A stretch of DNA of 64,000 nt from Candidatus Bathyarchaeia archaeon (GCA_038870415.1 JAWCPE010000001.1:6806-70805), one strand, 5' to 3'. Counted from the stretch's first letter, positions 12,940-64,000 are shown. Program-made: numbers and translations. Notes: generated by a model from the sequence alone, not told the origin.

Positions 12940-12962
12940 TTGACTAAAAAGGCTTAACCGTG
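12940..12962. promoter_or_regulatory. Shared divergent promoter region of pyrB (-) and pyrI (+), with BRE/TATA-like ACTAAAAAGGCTTAACCG
   Basis: The two starts are only about 100 bp apart. The sequence reads as an A-rich BRE plus TATA on both strands (revcomp GGTTAAGCCTTTTTAGTC). Confidence 0.4.
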
Positions 12963-13544: not shown

Positions 13545-15854
13545 TCAGATTCCAGAGAGTTCCTCAGCGGAGTACCTTCTCCTCGTGTTCAGAGCGGCTA
13601 GACGTGCCCCCGTCCAGTGGCGAAGGGGAAGGTACCGCGTCGAAGCCCTCCCGTAGGTTGTCAAGCCAGCGGAGCTGCCGCAGTTAGGGCATCGCTTAAC
13701 TAAGCCCGTCATTCTCAGTCGGCAGCGGGCACACCAAGTCACTAGACGAGAGTAGGCAAAGAGGCCGACAGCGTACTTCTCGATGATCTTCGCCGTGGCG
13801 GTCATCATGGCGTCCTTGTCAACCTCTTCATCTACCTCGAGAAGGGTCAGATGCCCGCCTCTGCTGTGGCTGCTCAGCGCGGCTTCAGCTGTAAGCCTAT
13901 CGCTAAGCGGGATATCGGCTTCAAGCGGGAGAACCGTGACGCTGGTGTAGTACGGAGCCCTAGGCCCCGTCCTTCCCCCAGCTGCGACTTGGCCATGCTC
14001 CTCGTAATCCAACTTCGCGAGCCTCTCGGCCGCTTCGGCACCAGCGATCTGAGTCAAGACGACCTCCTCACCGACCTCCTTACTGCGGTCAGAGAGGAGC
14101 CTCGCCATGCTCCGTAGACAGTGTTCAGCAAAGGAGCTGGAGCTTGAGGTCTCATGAATGTGGTTTCCTGTTTGCAGCACGGTCGCCTCATCTAATCCGA
14201 CGAAGCTCACGGCCATAACTACCTCGTCGAATCTACAGGGAGCTTCGCCGTTCCCCCCAAAGAGGAAAGGCAGGAGGTTGCCTTTGATCCGTTCATACAG
14301 GGCTCTGTGACGGACCGCGAGGGCCTCTAGGGCAAGGCTTACGGAGCTCTCAAGCTCAGCTTCAAAGGCACCTTCGTCCCCGCGGGAGAGACAGGCGATC
14401 CTAGGCAGGTCAAGGACTACGCCTCCTACGTAGGGTCGACCGAACTCGCCGTTTCCGGCTGAGGGAAAGCAGGCTCCGTCAGGCGTGTAAGCCCTGTTCT
14501 CCGCCCCTCCTGTCAGGTTGGCGAACAACACGGTACCCGCGTGAGAGGCAAGCCTGTGGGCGAGCTGGAACGGCTCATCCCAGCGGGTGGCGCTCATCCT
14601 AGATCGCAGCTTCAGGATGGGTACTGTGTCGAAGAGGGGCACGCATGCAGGTCCAGGGTTTAACGCCTTCAGAAGGGCGGTTGCAACTCTGCGCGCTTCA
14701 TCTTCGTGCTCGCCCCAGCTCCCCAGGGCTTTCCCGGCCCTCTCCTCAACGATGCCCTTAGGGATTTCCAACTCGAGCCCTATCGCTAGGCCCCCGGCGA
14801 GGTCGGGGCCAGCAGAGAGCTTGGCGAGGTCGATGAGGAACTCTCTAAGAGCCTCCTCTAAATCCTCATCGGAGGTACCGCGGGCGTAAGGTGCCAGCCA
14901 CACGTTGAACATGTCTAGGCTCTGTCCAGCGTTTACCTCCGGCCTGAAGGCTTCCAAGGCCTTTGACAGTCGCCTCAACGCAGACCTAAGCGACCGCGAT
15001 GGTTCGAATGGAATCGCGCTGAGCCCCTGTGCGACGCGGTTGCTTCCCTCCGCGACGAGTTGAGGCAGTTGGAGCAGCGCGTAGTCGGGCTTCAAGATGT
15101 ACGTTCCGAGGTTCTCGATGTGGATGCGGCCTGAGAGGTGGGCGTCTGCCACCTGCCTCGGTAGGGCTTTCAGCAGGACGTACTCCCTCAGCACTGAGTC
15201 GGCTGCCTCTTCTCGGACGGCTTCGCTGTTCAGTCCAGCCTCGCTCTTGGCCTGGATAAGCTTGGTGACGTCGTGCACAGGGAGCCCTAGCCTCGTCAGG
15301 CGGTGCCGGTACTCCTCAAGTCCCTTCTCGATGAGGACGGCGTTGACTATCTCGCGGATCAAGGGAGCTGTGAGATACCGGACCTCCAAGCCGAGAAGCC
15401 GGTCTTCCACCTCGCGTGCGACCTGCTCTGCAAGGTCGAGAGGCATCTGAGCCTCGTCTACGAGGGCTTTTACGATTCTTCCCCTTTCGAACTCCTCTAT
15501 TGCCAGCCTCGAGGTTCTCACGAGGAGTCTGCCCGCCTTCTTCAACGCGTCCTCGTCCAGTTCCTGTGCGAACTCGACGAGCTTCACGCCCATCTCTGTG
15601 AGCCTGTACTTCCTAGTCCTCCTGTCGGCCTCCACCAGACGCGCCCTCTGGACGCTCCTCAAATGGTAGGCGAACCGCCCGGTCTGCTTCTCCGGGTCCA
15701 ACCCCATCTTTTGCATGATCTCGCTGTAGGTCATGGGGCCGCGTAGGTGGAGCAGACGTAGGATCTCAAGCCTGATGGGCGACGAGGAGGCGCTGAAGAC
15801 CCTGACCCCAGCCCTCCTCCTGAACGCCTGAGTCATAGTCATGGACAGAGACAC
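13545..15854 (-). CDS. ArsR-type wHTH fused to a class III ribonucleotide reductase (NrdD)-like domain; likely a non-catalytic paralog
   Basis: 769 aa. The N-terminal IRLEILRLLHLRGPMTYSEIMQKMGL...RKYRLTEMG is an ArsR/SmtB wHTH. The body aligns to the bona fide NrdD at 62242+. SGRIHIENLGTY matches GDIHIHNLESGS. PRAPYYTSVTVLPLE matches DAPYYTSVLVPTVEE. The C-terminal Zn ribbon CARCRLRMTGLVKRCPNCGS matches CPKD..CDLCHG. At the glycyl-radical position RVVGYYRP, this protein has RASTRYLP. Confidence 0.6.
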   Translation of the reverse strand: MSLSMTMTQAFRRRAGVRVFSASSSPIRLEILRLLHLRGPMTYSEIMQKMGLDPEKQTGRFAYHLRSVQRARLVEADRRTRKYRLTEMGVKLVEFAQELDEDALKKAGRLLVRTSRLAIEEFERGRIVKALVDEAQMPLDLAEQVAREVEDRLLGLEVRYLTAPLIREIVNAVLIEKGLEEYRHRLTRLGLPVHDVTKLIQAKSEAGLNSEAVREEAADSVLREYVLLKALPRQVADAHLSGRIHIENLGTYILKPDYALLQLPQLVAEGSNRVAQGLSAIPFEPSRSLRSALRRLSKALEAFRPEVNAGQSLDMFNVWLAPYARGTSDEDLEEALREFLIDLAKLSAGPDLAGGLAIGLELEIPKGIVEERAGKALGSWGEHEDEARRVATALLKALNPGPACVPLFDTVPILKLRSRMSATRWDEPFQLAHRLASHAGTVLFANLTGGAENRAYTPDGACFPSAGNGEFGRPYVGGVVLDLPRIACLSRGDEGAFEAELESSVSLALEALAVRHRALYERIKGNLLPFLFGGNGEAPCRFDEVVMAVSFVGLDEATVLQTGNHIHETSSSSSFAEHCLRSMARLLSDRSKEVGEEVVLTQIAGAEAAERLAKLDYEEHGQVAAGGRTGPRAPYYTSVTVLPLEADIPLSDRLTAEAALSSHSRGGHLTLLEVDEEVDKDAMMTATAKIIEKYAVGLFAYSRLVTWCARCRLRMTGLVKRCPNCGSSAGLTTYGRASTRYLPLRHWTGARLAALNTRRRYSAEELSGI

Positions 15855-16025
15855 CTAGGGCTCTAGAAACTATCCTTTGAGCCTATAAAAACGCGGAGCA
15901 ATGCTGCAATGAGAGGACACGGCCTAAGCGCGCTCTCAGAGCTAGACCCTACATATGCGGCTGAGGGGCGATCCGAGATACTCCCCCGGGGACGGCTCTA
16001 TGCTCAGCCTCCTAGTGGGAGCTGT

Positions 16026-17531
16026 TCAACTCATCTCTTTCCATGCTCTGTAGGTGCCGTAGTCCACGTACTCCCTCTTGGGGTTCTCTATCTGTTCCCG
16101 GACCGTTATCGACCTAAGCCTCTTCTCAAGGATGAGGTCGGTGACTGTGAAGACGTAGGATTCGCTCCCTGCCCCCGACCCGTAACTGGTGGCCAGTATC
16201 CTATCTCCGGGCTTAGCGATGTCGAGTACGGCGGCGAGAGCTGTCAAGCAGGAGCCGGAATATAGGTTCCCGATCTTCTCCACTACTAGGCCTGGCTCTA
16301 CCTGTTCTCTCTGGAAGCCCATCTCGAGGGCTGCCGCGAGCGGGTACCGTGCGTTCGGAGAGTGATTCACGACGTACGCGAAGTCGCGTGGCCCCAGCCC
16401 GCTCTGCTTCAGCACGTTGCTCATCGCGGTCGTCACATGCTTGAAGTAGGCGGGTTTCCCAGTGAACCTACCGCCGTGCCGGGGGTACTTCTCCCCATCC
16501 CTGCGGTAGAAGTCCGCGGTATCGGACGTGTACGGCGCGTAATGGTCGAGGGTCGCGATGACTCCATGTTCGCCGAAGATGAACGCGGCGGCGCCAGCGC
16601 CAACGGTGGAGTCGAGGGCGTCGTGGGGTGCTGCCTGCGAGTTGTCTGAGCCGATGACCATAACGTTAGAGCCGGCGAAGACAGGGTAGGCTACGAGAGC
16701 CGCGGCGTCTATGAACAGATCCGTAGCAGCCTTGCAGGCGAACTGCGTATCTACACCGCCCGACATGAAACCGTCCTCGTACTTCTCACCCAGCTCAAGG
16801 GACTGACAGACCGTAGACATCGAAGGCTTCACCGCGTAAGGCGTAGACTCGGAGCCAAGGAAACACTTCTTCACATCCCTGCTCTTGATGCCTGCGTGGA
16901 TCAGCGCTCTGCGCCCCGCCTCGACGGCGAAGGTGGCTGTATCTTCGTCCTGGAAGGGAACCGTCCTCTCCTCGACTCCTCCGCTCGACGCGGGGTCTTC
17001 GTTCCTCACCCGGAACTTGGGCAGATAGACGCCGTATCCGACGATCCCTGGCCGAGATTTCTCATGAGCCTCCTTCACTTCGCATACCGGAGGGAACTGG
17101 CGGTAGTAGTCGTCCGCGAAAGAGAAGTTGAGGCTTGAGTAGGAGACGATGCCGCTTCCGCCGTTCGCGTAGAGCCTCCTAAACCTGGGGACAACTTCCC
17201 GACCGATGAGGTCGGAGATGTCCACCTCAACTTCGCCGGGGAGCTGGTCCGTGATCCGTCCGGGCACCTTGAGGGCGCCATCGTCGAAGCTCACTATCCC
17301 AACGAGGAATGAGGAGAAGTGACTGAACCTGTTCGTGGGTTTCCGGACCACGGTACCTGTGTAGAGGACGCCTGTGCTCTCGAAGTAGTCGAGGTAGCTC
17401 ATCTTGCTGCTTCTACCTTCCACGTTGCAGAACGATTTCGGCGGGAAGTACGTTGCGCCGCAGTTTTCGCACTTCGCGGCCGTTATCCTGTAGTCGATGA
17501 GCGTCTTCCTTCTGATCGTGGCTTCGCTCAT
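16026..17531 (-). CDS. HMG-CoA synthase with N-terminal fused DUF35 (Zn-ribbon/OB-fold) domain
   Basis: 501 aa. Residues 1-130 carry a DUF35-like AAKCENCGATYFPPKSFC plus an OB segment. The rest matches archaeal HMGCS (GIVGYGVYLPKFRV, DEDTATFAVEA, GSESTPYAVKPS). Its start overlaps the thiolase stop by 4 nt. Confidence 0.85.
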   Translation of the reverse strand: MSEATIRRKTLIDYRITAAKCENCGATYFPPKSFCNVEGRSSKMSYLDYFESTGVLYTGTVVRKPTNRFSHFSSFLVGIVSFDDGALKVPGRITDQLPGEVEVDISDLIGREVVPRFRRLYANGGSGIVSYSSLNFSFADDYYRQFPPVCEVKEAHEKSRPGIVGYGVYLPKFRVRNEDPASSGGVEERTVPFQDEDTATFAVEAGRRALIHAGIKSRDVKKCFLGSESTPYAVKPSMSTVCQSLELGEKYEDGFMSGGVDTQFACKAATDLFIDAAALVAYPVFAGSNVMVIGSDNSQAAPHDALDSTVGAGAAAFIFGEHGVIATLDHYAPYTSDTADFYRRDGEKYPRHGGRFTGKPAYFKHVTTAMSNVLKQSGLGPRDFAYVVNHSPNARYPLAAALEMGFQREQVEPGLVVEKIGNLYSGSCLTALAAVLDIAKPGDRILATSYGSGAGSESYVFTVTDLILEKRLRSITVREQIENPKREYVDYGTYRAWKEMS

Positions 17532-18754
17532 GCTAGGTCCCTCGCCAAGATGTGGACGGTGCAGATACCACCGGTCCCACCGATGTTGTGGCAGAGAGCC
17601 GTATTCAGGTCGCCGTCAACGCTTACCTGGTTTCTGCCAGCTTCTCCCCGCAGCTGTTTGAAGCACTCGTAAGCCTGTCTGACGCCGGTCGCCCCGACAG
17701 GGTGGCCGTCAGCCTTCAAGCCGCCCCCCGGGTTGACGGTAAGCTCTCCCCTCGGTCCTTGGTACGGGATGTGCCTCGAGCCCTTGAAGGATTCGTAGCT
17801 CTCGTAGACGCCTCTCCAGGCCTCCCCCCTCTTGTAGAAGCCTGAATCCTCGAGGAAGAGGAGCTCCTCGATCGTGAAGCAGTCATGGACCTCAGCGAGC
17901 CTTATATCCTCCATCGTCAGGCCCGCATCTTCTATGGCTGCGCGGGCTGCGAGAGCCGTCGCCTTGATGCTGATGATGCTCTCGCGGTTTGAAAGCGAGA
18001 CGTCATCTGTGGCCTGCCGGCTCGCCACGATGTAAATAGGGGTATCCGTGTACTTTTTCGCCTGTTCTGGACTTGTGAGGACTAAAGCGACGGCGCCGTC
18101 TGAGATAGGTGAGCAGTGTAGGAGCCGGATCGGGTCAGCTATCAGAGGAGAGGACATCACCTGTTCCACGGTGATGTCTCGTCTGAACTGGGCGTAAGGA
18201 TTATTCACGGCATGGTGGTGGTTCTTGCAGGCCACCTGAGCCAGGGACTCTAAGCATCTACGGTCGCCCCGCCCGTAGTCGTAGATGTACCTAGCCATGA
18301 TCGCTGCGTAGAGGCCTGAGAAGGTGTAGCCCGCGTCGAACTCATGCGAGTCCGCCGCCAGCATCAGGTCGTCTATCACGTGCGCGGAGGCGTCCGTCAT
18401 CTTCTCAAAGCCGCCCACAAGGACGAGGTCGTATCGGCCCGACCTTATCCCGATACAGGCGTTGTAGAGCGCGGAGCCCCCGGAGGCGCAGGCCGCCTCG
18501 GTATTACTCATGGGGACGTTTATGCCGAGTTCACGAGACATGTAGCCGGGGAGAAGCCCCAGTTGATTTGTCGCTTGGTAGAGGAAGCTTCCGAAGTAGC
18601 AGGACTGGATGTCCTTCCGTCTCAGGCCTTTCTCCACGGATTCCATGGCTTCAATGCCGGCTTGCACCATGAGCTTCTCCGGATTCTCGTACCAGTGCTC
18701 GCCGAACTCGGTTCTCCCAACACCTACGATTGCGGCGAGAGGCTTGAAGCCCAC
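17528..18754 (-). CDS. Acetoacetyl-CoA thiolase (archaeal thiolase)
   Basis: 408 aa. MGFKPLAAIVGVGRTEFG..., a NTEAACASGGSAL active-site Cys region and a C-terminal NIGGTGGICTVHIL match the thiolase fold. Confidence 0.9.
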   Translation of the reverse strand: MGFKPLAAIVGVGRTEFGEHWYENPEKLMVQAGIEAMESVEKGLRRKDIQSCYFGSFLYQATNQLGLLPGYMSRELGINVPMSNTEAACASGGSALYNACIGIRSGRYDLVLVGGFEKMTDASAHVIDDLMLAADSHEFDAGYTFSGLYAAIMARYIYDYGRGDRRCLESLAQVACKNHHHAVNNPYAQFRRDITVEQVMSSPLIADPIRLLHCSPISDGAVALVLTSPEQAKKYTDTPIYIVASRQATDDVSLSNRESIISIKATALAARAAIEDAGLTMEDIRLAEVHDCFTIEELLFLEDSGFYKRGEAWRGVYESYESFKGSRHIPYQGPRGELTVNPGGGLKADGHPVGATGVRQAYECFKQLRGEAGRNQVSVDGDLNTALCHNIGGTGGICTVHILARDLA

Positions 18755-18899
18755 CCTGATACCTCTGGTTCTCAGCCGAGTCAGGCCGAGACCTTTTAAG
18801 ACTTGTCTTATCGTCGTAAAGGCTTAAGACAATTGTACCATAAGGACCTAGCAAACTGCTTAAGCGAGCGGAGTAGAGACCATAAGGGAGGAAGCAACG

Positions 18900-61901: not shown

Positions 61902-62241
61902 GCGGACCGCCTCAACAGGATGTCCTTACCTAAGCGTTAAAGCCTTCGGCTGTTTCCTGACCGCACGTTCGAGGCTGAGGCCTACGTTGAATCGGCACCG
62001 GCATGCCGGTGCCGATTCAACGGGCAGATGGGGTAACCATAGTCTTTTGGCAGGTTTATGTCAATTCTAGTGGCTGGATGCCAGCTAGACTCGCCGATGC
62101 TCGGAGACTCGCCCTTCCGATAGCCGGTTGGCGTTAGAGAAAAGGCGCCGGCGTGAAGTCAATTTTTATGGAGTTCTCTGTCACAAACCCTTATATGAGA
62201 TGTTCACGGTATTCATGTTTCCCCGCGTTTCTGCGGCTGGG

Positions 62242-64000
62242 ATGCCTATGTCCCTCGTAGAGGATTACCTCGCGAAGTCCACGTGGAGAATCAGGGAGAA
62301 CGCGAACTTCAACTACTCGTACAGCGGGCTTCTATCCTATATCGCGAACTCCTACCTGGCGGAGTTCGCCCTAAGAACGATGCCCCCGGAGGCGGCTGAA
62401 GCCCACAGGTCGGGGGACATCCATATCCATAACCTAGAGTCGGGGAGCCTCATCCCCTACTGTCACGGCGGCTCACTCTTCAACCTGATCAAGGTAGGGA
62501 TCAGGTCGCCGACCGTCTCTTCGAACCCGGCGAAGCATTTCTCCGCCATCGTAGACCATATCGCGAACTACTTCCTCATCAGCCAGAACGAGTTCAGCGG
62601 CGCTCAGGCCTTCGCGGACTTCGATACGCTCACGGCGCCCTTCGTCGCCTACGACCACTTAGACTTCAAGGAGACGAAGCAGTGCCTCCAGAAGCTCGTC
62701 TTCAACCTGAACTTCACGTCGAGGCAGAGCTTCCAGTCGCCGTTCACGAACCTCACCTTCAACCTGGGCTGCCCGAAGAGCCTAGCGGAGGAGAAGGCCG
62801 TCATCGGCGGCGTGGAGACCCAGGACACATACGCAGACTTCCAGGACGAGGTGGAGCTCATCAACATGGCTATGGCTGAGATATACATGGACCGCGACGC
62901 TGCAGGAAGGCCTTTCACGTTCCCAATCCCCACCGTGAACGTCACACGGAGCTTCCCCTGGGGCTCCGAAGCCGCCGACAGGATCTTTGAAGCCGAAGCG
63001 AAGGTGGGAAGCTACTACTTCATGAACTACGTCGGCTCAGGCATCGAAGAGAACACGGTAAGGTCGATGTGCTGCCGGCTCCTCATCGACACGACGCAGC
63101 TAGCGCCGCCCGGCGGCCTCTTCGTAGCCCGCGAAGGGACGGGAAGCCTCGGCGTCGTCACCATCAACATGGGCCGCGTAGGCTTCCTCGCGAGAGACGA
63201 GAGAGACTACTTCGAACGGCTCGACCGCCTCCTAGAGCTGGCGAAGATGCAGCTCATGTTCAAGGCGGAGATGATCGACCGGAGCTTCAAGAACGGGCTT
63301 CTACCCTTCGCGGAGATGTATGGGTTCTGCCCGGAGAGCTACTTCAGAACGATAGGCCTAGTCGGCCTGAACGAGAGCTGCGTCAACTTCCTAGGCCTGC
63401 CCCTCTCGAAATCCGTAGACTTCGTAGAGAAAGTGCTCCTCCACGTCCGGGAGGTGCTCCGCCGATTCCAAGCGGAGACGGGTAAACCCTTCAACCTGGA
63501 GGAGACACCTGCGGAGGGCTCATGCCACAGGCTGGCGCTCCTCGACCGGAAGCGGTTCGACGGCATCTTCACGCAGGGAACGGTAGACGCCCCCTACTAT
63601 ACGAGCGTCCTCGTCCCGACGGTCGAGGAGATCAGCCTCATCGAGAGGATGAACGTGGAGGAGCGGCTGCTCCCCCTCTTCACAGGCGGCACCGTCTTCA
63701 GAATACTCCTAGGCGAGGCCCCCGGGGCTAGCGCGGCGAAGAGGCTTGTACGACGCATCGTAGAGAACACACGGATACCTTACCTAGACCTCGGCGCGGT
63801 GCTCTCGGTCTGCCCTAAGGACCGAACGATGCTCTACGGCGTCAAGGAGACCTGCGACCTCTGCCACGGGCGGACGGAGATCTACGCCCGCGTAGTAGGA
63901 TACTATCGGCCCACGTACAAGTGGAACCCCGGGAAGCAGAGGGAATTCGCGGACAGACGCTACTACGGGATGGAAGCCCTCAACAATGCCGCCTCAGAGA
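62242..64000 (+). CDS. nrdD: Anaerobic ribonucleoside-triphosphate reductase (class III RNR, NrdD), 3'-partial at window end
   Basis: Frame 1 is open from ATG 62242 to the window end, so it is absent from the ORF track. Translation gives GDIHIHNLESGSLIPYCHGG, SMCCRLLID, DAPYYTSVLVPTVEE, the Zn site CPKD...CDLCHG and the glycyl-radical motif ARVVGYYRP. No ATP-cone. Confidence 0.9.
   Translation, partial: MPMSLVEDYLAKSTWRIRENANFNYSYSGLLSYIANSYLAEFALRTMPPEAAEAHRSGDIHIHNLESGSLIPYCHGGSLFNLIKVGIRSPTVSSNPAKHFSAIVDHIANYFLISQNEFSGAQAFADFDTLTAPFVAYDHLDFKETKQCLQKLVFNLNFTSRQSFQSPFTNLTFNLGCPKSLAEEKAVIGGVETQDTYADFQDEVELINMAMAEIYMDRDAAGRPFTFPIPTVNVTRSFPWGSEAADRIFEAEAKVGSYYFMNYVGSGIEENTVRSMCCRLLIDTTQLAPPGGLFVAREGTGSLGVVTINMGRVGFLARDERDYFERLDRLLELAKMQLMFKAEMIDRSFKNGLLPFAEMYGFCPESYFRTIGLVGLNESCVNFLGLPLSKSVDFVEKVLLHVREVLRRFQAETGKPFNLEETPAEGSCHRLALLDRKRFDGIFTQGTVDAPYYTSVLVPTVEEISLIERMNVEERLLPLFTGGTVFRILLGEAPGASAAKRLVRRIVENTRIPYLDLGAVLSVCPKDRTMLYGVKETCDLCHGRTEIYARVVGYYRPTYKWNPGKQREFADRRYYGMEALNNAASE

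What the first reader, a model, noticed from the sequence alone, without database searches (positions are those of the whole stretch)
13545..15854. ArsR-type winged helix fused to a degenerate NrdD (class III RNR) body; possible pseudoenzyme turned regulator
The 769-aa protein is collinear with the genuine NrdD in the same window (62242+). The IH(I/E)NL block, the PYYTSV block and the C-terminal CxxC...CxxC zinc ribbon all align. At the position of the glycyl-radical motif (RVVGYYRP in the real NrdD) it reads RASTRYLP, so the radical Gly is replaced by Thr and the following Tyr by Arg. The PYC cysteine segment of NrdD is PDY, and the SMCC finger-loop cysteines are not evident. Instead of an ATP-cone it carries an N-terminal ArsR/SmtB wHTH. 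A radical-dead RNR scaffold that keeps nucleotide-binding effector sites and gains a DNA-binding domain could be a dNTP/NTP-sensing transcription factor. It sits downstream on the same strand of the mevalonate genes and beside pyrBI and pyrH. I do not recognise this architecture as a described family.
Basis: partly seen in the sequence, partly recalled or inferred. Interest (0 to 1): 0.8.

Follow-up and report, generated by a model that had tools for sequence, protein, structure and literature searches.

The report
Dead RNR paralogue turned nucleotide-sensing regulator
This archaeal gene encodes a copy of the anaerobic ribonucleotide reductase that has lost its catalytic residues, kept its ATP/dATP-sensing domain and gained a DNA-binding domain. 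It sits next to reductase genes in hundreds of genomes, so it is probably an undescribed archaeal regulator of DNA-precursor synthesis.

Summary
The 769-aa ORF is real. It lies at 13545-15854 on the minus strand, in a Bathyarchaeia genome. Its architecture is wHTH (ArsR-like, DUF7347), then ATP-cone, then an NrdD-like body with a Zn ribbon.

The hallmarks of class III RNR chemistry are gone:
- Radical Gly: present in 6/200 relatives; the window protein reads RASTRYLP.
- Beta-A Cys: 0/200.
- Thiyl Cys: Ala in the window protein, Cys in 91/200.
- HxHD motif reads HIEN.
- The NxN flap is replaced.

The fold is still NrdD by Foldseek, and the protein is collinear with a genuine Bathyarchaeial ATP-cone NrdD (30-35% identity).

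At least 561 stretches in species-representative genomes encode a relative. In 41/52 informative loci the gene is followed by grx-nrdD and/or pyrBI. Shorter homologues with eroded bodies occur in Nitrososphaerota, including aerobes. In Ca. Nitrosocaldus one sits directly upstream of a non-NrdD RNR. In low-GC relatives a 12-mer (TAAAAAATTAAA) occurs only in the promoters of this gene and of grx-nrdD (31/31 hits in 1.25 Mb).

Best reading: a pseudoenzyme-derived, ATP/dATP-sensing transcription factor for RNR genes, an NrdR analogue. DNA and nucleotide binding are inferred, not shown. I found no description in the literature I searched.

The parts
13545..15854 (-). Whole gene: wHTH, ATP-cone, catalytically dead NrdD-like body, Zn ribbon (769 aa from the GTG; 765 aa from the ATG at 15842)
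   Evidence: ORF and translation. Pfam architecture. A 100% identical NCBI protein, P0001, from a Bathyarchaeia MAG.
15573..15800 (-). N-terminal winged helix-turn-helix, ArsR/SmtB-like (residues 19-94); recognition-helix motif GRFAYHL
   Evidence: DUF7347 E 5e-9 and HTH_20 E 1e-6. PDB ArsR 6J05 E 0.0065 with the HL..L...LV pattern aligned. G59, F61, Y63, H64 and L65 are >=97% conserved in 200 relatives.
15309..15521 (-). ATP-cone (residues 112-182), starting VRTSRLAIEEF; the predicted ATP/dATP sensor
   Evidence: PF03477, 28.0 bits vs cut-off 25.8. It is the most conserved module: 35/78 columns are >=95% conserved. The same VRTS[RK] start occurs in the ATP-cone of a genuine Bathyarchaeial NrdD.
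13572..15227 (-). NrdD-like alpha/beta-barrel body (residues 210-761)
   Evidence: PF13597 E 9e-58, but below every NCBIfam NrdD equivalog cut-off. AF2 model pLDDT 79, pTM 0.74. Top Foldseek PDB hits are all class III RNRs, E 1e-25 to 1e-17.
15111..15122 (-). Degenerate HxHD substrate-triphosphate motif: HIEN (residues 245-248)
   Evidence: Genuine NrdDs have HIHD, HYHD or HIHN. In the family the second His appears among none of the five commonest residues of that column, and D is mostly N. The role of the motif is taken from PMC11226230.
15075..15089 (-). Beta-A strand position of the second catalytic Cys: PDYAL (Tyr258 in place of Cys)
   Evidence: Aligned with E. coli C175 and with the Cys of PYC in the window NrdD. 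No Cys among the six commonest residues of this column in 200 relatives.
14466..14492 (-). Finger-loop tip AYTPDGACF: Ala461 at the thiyl-radical Cys column, with Cys462 one position later
   Evidence: Aligned with E. coli PMGC(384)R and the window NrdD SMCCR. The family has Cys here in only 91/200 members; the preceding Gly is kept in 199/200.
13680..13733 (-). C-terminal Cys4 zinc ribbon, CARC...CPNC (C708, C711, C722, C725)
   Evidence: All four Cys are >=97% conserved in the family.
13620..13655 (-). Former glycyl-radical loop, YGRASTRYLPLR: no Gly between the conserved Arg and Pro
   Evidence: At the column of the archaeal NrdD Gly the family has A 123, T 24, S 18 and G 6 of 200. The six members with Gly lack the beta-A Cys.
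15882..15891 (-). Promoter TATA-like element TTTTTATAGG of this gene, 27 nt upstream of the GTG (39 nt upstream of the ATG); resembles Box A of relatives
   Evidence: Sequence. The 72%-identical relative L006 has a one-base-shorter version, CTTTTATAGG. The same 10-mer lies inside Box A of the family promoters in L060, L062, L065 and L066. Weak evidence on its own.
62158..62173 (+). GTCAATTTTTATGGAG upstream of the genuine nrdD: a candidate equivalent of the Box A/Box C elements of relatives' nrdD promoters
   Evidence: Sequence. Shares TTTTTAT(A)GG with this gene's promoter. Resembles L010's TATACAGATTTATGGA. Not statistically significant within the window alone.
62190..62199 (+). Probable TATA box (CTTATATGAG) of the genuine nrdD
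   Evidence: Position about 43 nt upstream of the ATG at 62242. Inference only.
62242..64000 (+). Genuine class III RNR (NrdD), cut by the window end; no ATP-cone in this genome; candidate target of the regulator
   Evidence: PF13597 E 1e-139 and NCBIfam PRK08270 637 bits, above the 548 cut-off. Has PYC, SMCC and RVVGYY. A stop codon lies about 45 codons upstream in frame, leaving no room for an ATP-cone.

Best explanation
The gene encodes a pseudoenzyme-derived transcription factor.

Origin (shown by alignment): a Bathyarchaeial NrdD that already carried an ATP-cone was duplicated. One copy gained an N-terminal ArsR-type winged helix. That copy lost the radical Gly, both catalytic Cys positions, the HxHD motif and the NxN flap, but kept the barrel fold, the Zn ribbon and, under the strongest selection, the ATP-cone.

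Proposed mechanism (inferred):
1. The protein dimerises through the NrdD body.
2. The ATP-cone reads the ATP/dATP ratio. The old specificity site may also read dNTPs.
3. The nucleotide state changes how the two wHTH domains are presented.
4. This changes occupancy of operators at its own promoter and at the RNR promoter (grx-nrdD in Bathyarchaeia; a non-NrdD, class I/II-type RNR in Nitrosocaldus).
5. RNR transcription is thereby tuned to the dNTP supply, as NrdR does in bacteria.

In low-GC relatives the quasi-palindrome TTTAA-N4-TTAAA lies at the TATA position of both promoters. That placement suggests repression by occluding TBP/TFB. The TATACAGAATTTTATAC element upstream of the nrdD promoter is a second candidate site.
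For: Dead enzyme:
- Gly 6/200, beta-A Cys 0/200, thiyl Cys 91/200 (Ala in this protein), HxHD reads HIEN, NxN flap replaced.
- Scores below all NCBIfam NrdD equivalog cut-offs.

Fold and origin:
- Foldseek top hits are all NrdD.
- 30-35% identity over ~680 aa, from ATP-cone to C-terminus, with the L010-type genuine NrdD.

Sensor and DNA-binding modules under selection:
- The ATP-cone has 35/78 columns >=95% conserved, against 6/125 and 20/225 in the mid and late body. The wHTH recognition helix is nearly invariant.

Conservation:
- 120/120 top clusters share the architecture.
- At least 561 stretches in species-representative genomes encode a relative.
- 440 representative clusters match the N-terminal wHTH + ATP-cone region at E<=1e-10.

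Synteny:
- A genuine NrdD lies immediately downstream on the same strand in 23/52 informative loci. pyrB/I lies within 6 kb in 30/52. One or the other is present in 41/52.
- In Ca. Nitrosocaldus the homologue lies 68 nt upstream of an ATP-cone + Ribonuc_red_lgN/lgC RNR, followed by pyrB/pyrI.
- Homologues with eroded bodies occur in aerobes that carry COX1/COX2.

Cis-elements in 1.25 Mb of related loci:
- TAAAAAATTAAA: 31 hits, all upstream of this gene or in the interval between it and grx/nrdD.
- TAATTTTTTAAAC: 27/28 hits upstream of this gene, the other upstream of an nrdD.
- Box A: 21/23 hits upstream of grx/nrdD and 2 upstream of this gene (4 with a looser pattern).
- Generic TATA-like words are not so restricted.

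NrdR is reported to be rare in archaea (PMC9110341).
Against: - No experiment. DNA binding, nucleotide binding and oligomeric state are all inferred.
- The shared boxes are A/T-rich and sit at TATA positions. They could be an unusual shared core promoter, or the site of a different factor.
- In the window's own 59% GC lineage the boxes are only faintly recognisable: TTTTTAT(A)GG in both promoters, not significant on its own.
- 11/52 informative loci have neither an RNR gene nor pyrBI nearby.
- No box was found in the pyrB-pyrI intergenic regions, so the pyr link is unexplained.
- The first ATP-cone motif is VRTSR rather than the usual KRDG-type (the usual motif is from my own knowledge), so ATP/dATP binding is not guaranteed.
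- Retention of the specificity site could not be mapped.
Confidence: 0.6

Rival explanations
1. Non-catalytic regulatory subunit. The dead paralogue heterodimerises with the genuine NrdD through the conserved dimer helices. It would supply or modulate allosteric control (ATP-cone), or inhibit the enzyme. The wHTH would act as a protein-interaction or accessory module rather than a sequence-specific DNA binder.
For: - The N-terminal core helices keep near-identity with genuine Bathyarchaeial NrdDs: ADAHLSG.LH and FNVFLAPF-type motifs.
- In 23/52 informative loci the gene lies directly upstream of nrdD.
- In this window the genuine NrdD lacks an ATP-cone, so a partner that carries one would make sense here.
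Against: - Homologues sit next to a non-NrdD RNR in Ca. Nitrosocaldus and occur in oxidase-bearing aerobes where NrdD is not expected.
- In most Bathyarchaeia loci the adjacent genuine NrdD has its own ATP-cone-like N-terminus.
- The wHTH recognition helix is nearly invariant, and promoter-specific shared DNA elements exist.
- In Nitrososphaerota the body erodes while the wHTH and ATP-cone persist.
Confidence: 0.15
2. Transcription factor whose main targets are pyrimidine biosynthesis genes (pyrBI, pyrH) or a broader nucleotide and replication regulon, with RNR synteny secondary.
For: - pyrB/pyrI lie within 6 kb downstream in 30/52 loci, more often than nrdD. This holds in the window, in Nitrosocaldus and in a 'Lokiarchaeota' MAG.
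- A divergent pyrH lies upstream in 6/73 loci, including the window.
Against: - None of the conserved boxes occurs in the pyrB-pyrI intergenic regions.
- The boxes are shared only by this gene and grx-nrdD.
- Gene order in this region may be ancestral synteny. Thiolase/DUF35 also recurs nearby without an obvious functional link.
Confidence: 0.12
3. Still an enzyme: a diverged barrel that performs non-radical chemistry on nucleotides, or a radical enzyme that uses a different radical site.
For: - The barrel fold and Zn ribbon are kept, and several NrdD-wide residues persist: R485, E556, R611, D616, T637, E657.
- A Cys is kept at the finger-loop tip in 46% of members.
Against: - All motifs that bind the substrate triphosphate and base (HxHD, NxN) and all radical-relay residues are lost or unconstrained.
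- The body is the least conserved part and is truncated or eroded in relatives.
Confidence: 0.04
4. Decaying pseudogene or annotation artefact (frameshift fusion of an HTH gene with nrdD).
For: None beyond the degenerate catalytic motifs.
Against: - The ORF is intact.
- The same length and domain order are found in hundreds of genomes at 35-74% identity, with strongly conserved columns.
- The gene has its own conserved promoter.
Confidence: 0.01

Closest known systems
NrdR (bacterial RNR repressor: Zn-ribbon + ATP-cone)
   Same: Both pair a DNA-binding domain with an ATP-cone. Both are encoded next to RNR genes. NrdR regulates RNR operons, and often its own gene, according to the ATP/dATP state (PMC9110341). 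The present family shows the matching genomic signature: RNR synteny, and shared elements in its own promoter and the RNR promoter.
   Different: The DNA-binding domain is an ArsR-type wHTH, not a Zn-ribbon. The protein is about five times larger and carries a complete dead NrdD body. The candidate operators (TTTAA-N4-TTAAA; TATACAGAATTTTATAC) differ from NrdR boxes as I recall them (own knowledge, not compared here). Its ATP-cone starts VRTS[RK], like that of a neighbouring genuine archaeal NrdD, which points to descent from an NrdD rather than from NrdR. The distribution is TACK archaea. It is not a member of the NrdR family.
Class III ribonucleotide reductase NrdD (e.g. P. copri 8P23, T. 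maritima 4COL, T4 1H79; genuine copy at 62242+)
   Same: Same fold (Foldseek E down to 1e-25). Collinear from ATP-cone to Zn ribbon with a genuine Bathyarchaeial NrdD. Pfam NRDD hit.
   Different: Lacks the radical Gly, the beta-A Cys, a constrained thiyl Cys, HxHD and the NxN flap. Below all NCBIfam equivalog cut-offs. Carries an extra wHTH. Public annotation as 'anaerobic ribonucleoside-triphosphate reductase' is therefore misleading.
ArsR/SmtB family wHTH regulators (e.g. ArsR 6J05)
   Same: The N-terminal 19-94 matches HTH_20/HTH_5 and ArsR 6J05, with the recognition-helix pattern aligned.
   Different: It scores below the NCBIfam metalloregulator cut-off (28 vs 55 bits). The sensor is not a metal site but, by inference, an ATP-cone plus RNR body.
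Enzyme-derived nucleotide-pathway regulators such as PyrR (PRTase-fold regulator of pyr genes). Analogy from my own knowledge, not tested here.
   Same: The concept: a metabolic enzyme scaffold of the pathway is reused as the ligand sensor of that pathway's gene regulator.
   Different: The fold, nucleic-acid target and lineage are unrelated. In the present family the enzyme activity is abolished.

Membership tests
Class III RNR (NrdD), catalytically competent | Glycyl-radical Gly in the C-terminal R-x-x-G-Y loop | tested here: not met
   The loop reads RASTRYLP. There is no Gly in any alignment register. The family has Gly in 6/200 members.
Class III RNR (NrdD), catalytically competent | Thiyl-radical Cys at the finger-loop tip (E. 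coli C384, P. copri C416) | tested here: not met
   Ala461 occupies that column and Cys462 is one position later. The family has Cys in 91/200 members, so the position is unconstrained.
Class III RNR (NrdD), catalytically competent | Second catalytic Cys on the first barrel strand (E. coli C175, P. copri C171) | tested here: not met
   Tyr258 in this protein. No Cys among the six commonest residues of the column in 200 relatives.
Class III RNR (NrdD), catalytically competent | HxHD triphosphate-binding motif and NxN flap (PMC11226230) | tested here: not met
   The motif reads HIEN. The flap segment is shortened and has no NxN.
Class III RNR (NrdD), catalytically competent | Ten-stranded alpha/beta barrel with a C-terminal Zn-ribbon domain | tested here: met
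   AF2 model pLDDT 79. Foldseek top 36 hits are all NrdD chains. The four Cys are conserved.
Class III RNR (NrdD), catalytically competent | Profile score above curated family cut-offs | tested here: inconclusive
   Pfam NRDD 196.7 bits, above the 26.2 cut-off. TIGR02487 194 bits, below 326, and all other NCBIfam equivalogs far below their cut-offs.
NrdR | N-terminal Zn-ribbon DNA-binding domain | tested here: not met
   The N-terminus is a wHTH (DUF7347/HTH_20). The only Zn ribbon is the C-terminal NrdD one.
NrdR | ATP-cone as the sole sensor domain, in a small protein with no enzyme body | tested here: not met
   An ATP-cone is present, but it is followed by a ~550-aa NrdD-like body.
NrdR | Binds paired NrdR boxes at RNR promoters in a nucleotide-dependent way | not testable with these tools
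   Only the genomic signature could be examined: RNR synteny, and specific elements shared between its own promoter and the nrdD promoter.
ArsR/SmtB wHTH regulators | wHTH profile match with a conserved recognition helix | tested here: met
   HTH_20 28.7 bits, above 27. ArsR 6J05 E 0.0065. However, NCBIfam HTH_metalloreg scores 28 bits, below 55.
ArsR/SmtB wHTH regulators | Metal or metalloid sensing site | not tested
   No analysis of metal-ligand residues was made.
Pfam DUF7347 | Profile match above the gathering score | tested here: met
   36.6 bits, above 27.6, residues 19-94. Present in most relatives.

The most novel reading that the evidence does not exclude
A whole RNR allosteric machine (the a-site ATP-cone and possibly the dimer-interface specificity site) has been retired from catalysis and rewired to a winged helix. 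It would then act as the dNTP-pool sensor that controls transcription of RNR genes of any class, and perhaps pyrimidine synthesis, across Bathyarchaeia and Nitrososphaerota. That would make it the missing archaeal counterpart of NrdR, invented independently from the enzyme itself.
Probability: 0.4. Interest if true: 0.85.

Novelty: new variant of a known kind. Interest (0 to 1): 0.75.

Why it matters
How archaea regulate RNR genes is not, to my knowledge, well understood, and NrdR is reported to be rare in them (PMC9110341). This family offers a concrete, testable candidate regulator for a large and ecologically important part of the archaea: Bathyarchaeia, and thermophilic and other Nitrososphaerota.

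It would also be a clear case of an essential radical enzyme turning into a ligand-sensing transcription factor. The series from full-length dead bodies to eroded ones shows the process in stages.

It matters for annotation too. Hundreds of database entries call this protein 'anaerobic ribonucleoside-triphosphate reductase'. That can wrongly credit a genome with a class III RNR, including aerobes, and so distort metabolic reconstructions and RNR phylogenies.

Tried and rejected
- **Frameshift or fusion artefact:** rejected. The architecture and length are conserved in every relative examined.
- **'ATP-cone replaced by wHTH':** rejected. Both domains are present.
- **Dyad search in upstreams:** a generic search in 79 upstream regions of the family gene gave only the TTTAA-N4-TTAAA element. 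This led to the box analysis.
- **Shared words in the window's own intergenic regions:** only short matches. AAAGGCTTAA proved to be a genome-wide promoter-like word rather than a regulon mark. ATGTCAATT is not enriched in the window overall.
- **Box A in the metagenome collection:** I scanned for the exact 17-mer to find further regulon members. Of 80 loci shown, 18 fall in the interval between the family gene and grx/nrdD. L157 and L168 look like the same promoter cut by a contig end, and L114 may be a variant. The rest are chance hits in unrelated, mostly AT-rich or coding DNA. No new target was found.
- **NrdG activase:** tblastn with E. coli NrdG found none in any locus at E<=1e-5. This is probably a sensitivity problem and not informative.
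- **Specificity-site mapping:** I tried to map P. copri Glu290, Asn298 and loop 2 onto the family. The PDB sequence alignments were too fragmentary, so the question stays open.
- **Exact-sequence look-up of the NCBI protein P0001:** no contig on record.
- **Literature:** searches for ATP-cone + HTH + NrdD, DUF7347, NrdD + Bathyarchae*, and two RNR family-wide phylogeny papers mention no such architecture. Subscription-only literature was not searched.
Full report
**1. The observation**

The window holds an uninterrupted 769-codon ORF at 13545-15854. A 100% identical 765-aa protein is deposited from a Candidatus Bathyarchaeia MAG under the name 'anaerobic ribonucleoside-triphosphate reductase'.

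Pfam gives this layout:
- A winged helix at residues 19-94 (DUF7347 36.6 bits, HTH_20 28.7 bits, both above their cut-offs).
- An ATP-cone at 112-182 (28.0 bits, cut-off 25.8).
- NRDD at 210-761 (E 9e-58).

The genuine NrdD at 62242+ scores 467 bits on the same model and passes the NCBIfam equivalog cut-off. The 769-aa protein is below every NrdD equivalog cut-off. BLASTP of the two gives 23% identity, E 7e-25. IHIENL aligns with IHIHNL, APYYTSV with APYYTSV, the Cys-rich C-terminal ribbons align (a full CxxC...CxxC in this protein, CPKD...CDLC in the window NrdD), and RASTRYLP aligns with RVVGYYRP.

The statement that the wHTH stands 'instead of an ATP-cone' does not.

**2. It is a dead NrdD**

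I aligned 200 family members (83 translated from loci, 117 database proteins) with four genuine NrdDs: E. coli, the window copy and two Bathyarchaeial types.

| Feature | Genuine NrdD | Window protein | Family (n=200) |
|---|---|---|---|
| Radical Gly | Gly (archaeal NrdD column) | Thr | Ala 123, Thr 24, Ser 18, Gly 6 |
| First-strand Cys | E. coli C175 | Tyr258 | Never Cys |
| Thiyl Cys | E. coli C384 | Ala461 (a Cys follows at 462) | Cys in 91 |
| HxHD (binds the substrate triphosphate) | HIHD / HYHD / HIHN | HIEN | H-[LI]-x-N |
| NxN flap | Present | Shortened, no NxN | Shortened, no NxN |

In the E. coli and P. copri registers the Gly column holds Lys or Arg, so no Gly is available in either register. 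The roles of HxHD and the flap are taken from PMC11226230.

What is kept:
- The four Zn-ribbon Cys.
- The Gly before the finger-loop tip.
- The N-terminal core helices (ADAHLSG.LH; FNVFLAPF).

The AlphaFold model (pLDDT 79.3, pTM 0.74) hits only class III RNRs at the top of a PDB Foldseek search (E 1e-25 to 1e-17, target TM up to 0.75).

The family is collinear from its ATP-cone to its C-terminus with one type of genuine Bathyarchaeial NrdD (30-35% identity over ~680 residues, E 1e-81 to 1e-126). That NrdD's ATP-cone begins VRTSK, against VRTSR in the family. The simplest history is duplication of an ATP-cone-bearing NrdD, N-terminal fusion of a wHTH, and then loss of catalysis.

**3. Selection pattern**

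| Module | Columns >=95% conserved |
|---|---|
| ATP-cone | 35/78 |
| wHTH | 16/86 (includes the recognition-helix motif G-[RK]-F-A-Y-H-L) |
| N-terminal core | 28/130 |
| Mid body | 6/125 |
| Late body | 20/225 |

A phmmer search with the first 215 residues against 1.84 billion representatives finds 440 clusters at E<=1e-10. Many of these are 590-700 aa. In ten sampled, the wHTH is present in all and the ATP-cone was detected in eight. The NRDD match shrinks to a partial 21-80 bits, and in several the match stops short of the profile's C-terminal end. These shorter forms come from Nitrososphaerota MAGs, Ca. Nitrosocaldus and one 'Lokiarchaeota' MAG.

Selection therefore preserves the sensor and DNA-binding modules while the enzyme body decays.

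**4. Distribution and context**

A pattern scan of one genome per species returned at least 561 confirmed stretches. The 80 best are almost all Bathyarchaeia, including Ca. Bathyarchaeum tardum and three other chromosome-level records (a further chromosome-level locus comes).

In 52 non-redundant loci with at least 3 kb of downstream sequence:
- A genuine nrdD follows immediately on the same strand in 23, with a glutaredoxin-like ORF between in 17.
- pyrB/pyrI lie within 6 kb in 30.
- One or the other is present in 41.

The window shows the variant in which nrdD is elsewhere (62242+) and pyrI/pyrB abut the 3' end. A divergent pyrH-like gene lies further upstream, beyond thiolase and HMG-CoA synthase on the gene's own strand.

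The most telling locus is Ca. Nitrosocaldus. There the homologue lies 68 nt upstream of an 887-aa ATP-cone + Ribonuc_red_lgN/lgC reductase, which is a different RNR class, again followed by pyrB/pyrI. Another homologue lies in a contig with COX1/COX2. The link is therefore to RNR genes as such, not to NrdD protein. This argues against an obligate NrdD-partner role.

**5. Cis-elements**

In 1.25 Mb of related loci, both strands:
- The 12-mer TAAAAAATTAAA occurs 31 times. Twenty hits are upstream of the family gene, mostly as its reverse complement inside TACTTTAATTTTTTAAACTA at the TATA position. Eleven are in the interval between the family gene and grx/nrdD, again at the TATA position. None is elsewhere.
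- TAATTTTTTAAAC occurs 28 times: 27 upstream of the family gene and one upstream of an nrdD.
- Box A (TATACAGAATTTTATAC) occurs 23 times: 21 about 85 nt upstream of grx, and two just upstream of the family gene's own box (four with a looser pattern).
- Generic TATA-like words are spread over the loci, so these are not ordinary promoters.

The proteins in these loci are only 35-40% identical to the window protein. I infer that exact 12-17-mers would not survive at that divergence without selection.

The quasi-palindrome TTTAA-N4-TTAAA is what a dimeric wHTH would be expected to bind. Its overlap with the TATA box suggests repression.

These elements are from low-GC relatives. In the 59% GC window lineage only TTTTTAT(A)GG is shared by the two promoters (15882-15891 minus strand; 62158-62173), and that is weak. 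A metagenome-wide scan for the exact Box A 17-mer recovered the same intergenic region in 18 of the 80 loci shown. Two or three further hits look like the same promoter cut by a contig end. The rest were chance hits, and no further targets appeared.

**6. Mechanism and rivals**

*Shown:*
- Loss of the catalytic and substrate motifs.
- Retention of the NrdD fold (predicted model).
- Retention and strong conservation of the ATP-cone and wHTH.
- Synteny with RNR genes of two classes and with pyrBI.
- Promoter elements shared by the family gene and nrdD in low-GC relatives.

*Inferred:*
- The ATP-cone binds ATP/dATP.
- The body dimerises.
- The nucleotide state controls wHTH-operator binding.
- The outcome is (auto)repression of RNR transcription, as with NrdR.

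I put 0.6 on this. The rivals:

| Rival | Confidence | Main weakness |
|---|---|---|
| Non-catalytic NrdD partner subunit | 0.15 | Nitrosocaldus and aerobe data; the conserved recognition helix |
| Regulator aimed mainly at pyr genes | 0.12 | No shared boxes at pyrBI |
| Residual or novel enzyme | 0.04 | Substrate and radical motifs lost; body least conserved |
| Artefact or pseudogene | 0.01 | Conservation across hundreds of genomes |

**7. Comparison with the known, and novelty**

It works like NrdR in concept but fails NrdR membership: it has no Zn-ribbon DNA-binding domain and carries a large extra body. It is a structural NrdD homologue but fails every catalytic membership feature. Its wHTH is ArsR-like and belongs to Pfam DUF7347, a domain of unknown function.

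I found no paper in the accessible library that describes the architecture or the DUF. NrdR papers state that NrdR is rare in archaea.

I rate it a new variant of a known kind: an ATP-cone-coupled RNR regulator, reached by a new route, through pseudoenzyme conversion of the RNR itself.

Noticed in passing
window 16026-17531 (-) and 17528-18754 (-): The HMG-CoA synthase is fused to an N-terminal DUF35 module (zf-ChsH2 + OB_ChsH2_C) in one 501-aa protein, directly after a thiolase. Thiolase + DUF35 genes recur near the family gene in distant lineages (L006, L056, L086 Nitrosocaldus, L091, L092). This may be ancestral synteny or an unexplained link.
   Followed up: partly
window 12948-12957 and 18818-18827, plus 9 one-mismatch sites: AAAGGCTTAA occurs in both the pyrB-pyrI and the thiolase-pyrH intergenic regions. 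With one mismatch it occurs 11 times in the window, against 1.9 expected. It is probably this lineage's generic BRE/TATA-like promoter word rather than a pyr-specific site.
   Followed up: partly
window 62058-62088: Upstream of the genuine nrdD, ATGTCAATTC (similar to 'Box C', ATGT[CT]AATTT, of relatives' nrdD promoters) is followed by a 22-nt inverted repeat, CTAGTGGCTGGATGCCAGCTAG. A second GTCAATT copy lies 100 nt downstream at 62158.
   Followed up: no
window 62242-64000 (+): The genuine NrdD of this genome has no ATP-cone, whereas the NrdDs next to the family gene in other Bathyarchaeia have a weak one. It has adjacent Cys-Cys at the finger loop (SMCC), and its first Zn-ribbon pair reads CPKD rather than CxxC. 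No glutaredoxin-like ORF is evident upstream.
   Followed up: partly
L042 2459-2875: Directly downstream of the family gene a second ORF matches the family's ATP-cone region at 45% identity, then the contig ends. It is probably the ATP-cone of the adjacent genuine NrdD, which would fit the duplication origin.
   Followed up: no
L067 (DATKLC010000012.1) and L089 (JAFGGO010000087.1): Family loci with archaeal-type pyrB (both) and pyrI (L067) are deposited in MAGs labelled 'Krumholzibacteriaceae bacterium' and 'Candidatus Lokiarchaeota'. These are possibly mis-binned contigs. The Loki case could also be genuine.
   Followed up: no
L062, L066, L080 and other relatives, about 30-60 nt upstream of the grx start: The grx-nrdD 5' leader has a conserved TTATCTCG....AAAGAGGTAATTTTCATGGG segment. 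It contains a CTC/GAG complement around the Shine-Dalgarno-like GAGGT, so it may be a leader structure.
   Followed up: no
L086 7940-7960 (Ca. Nitrosocaldus): Upstream of the Nitrosocaldus homologue lies a perfect 13-bp palindrome, TAAAATTATTTTA, at a TATA-like position. It recalls Box B of Bathyarchaeia.
   Followed up: no
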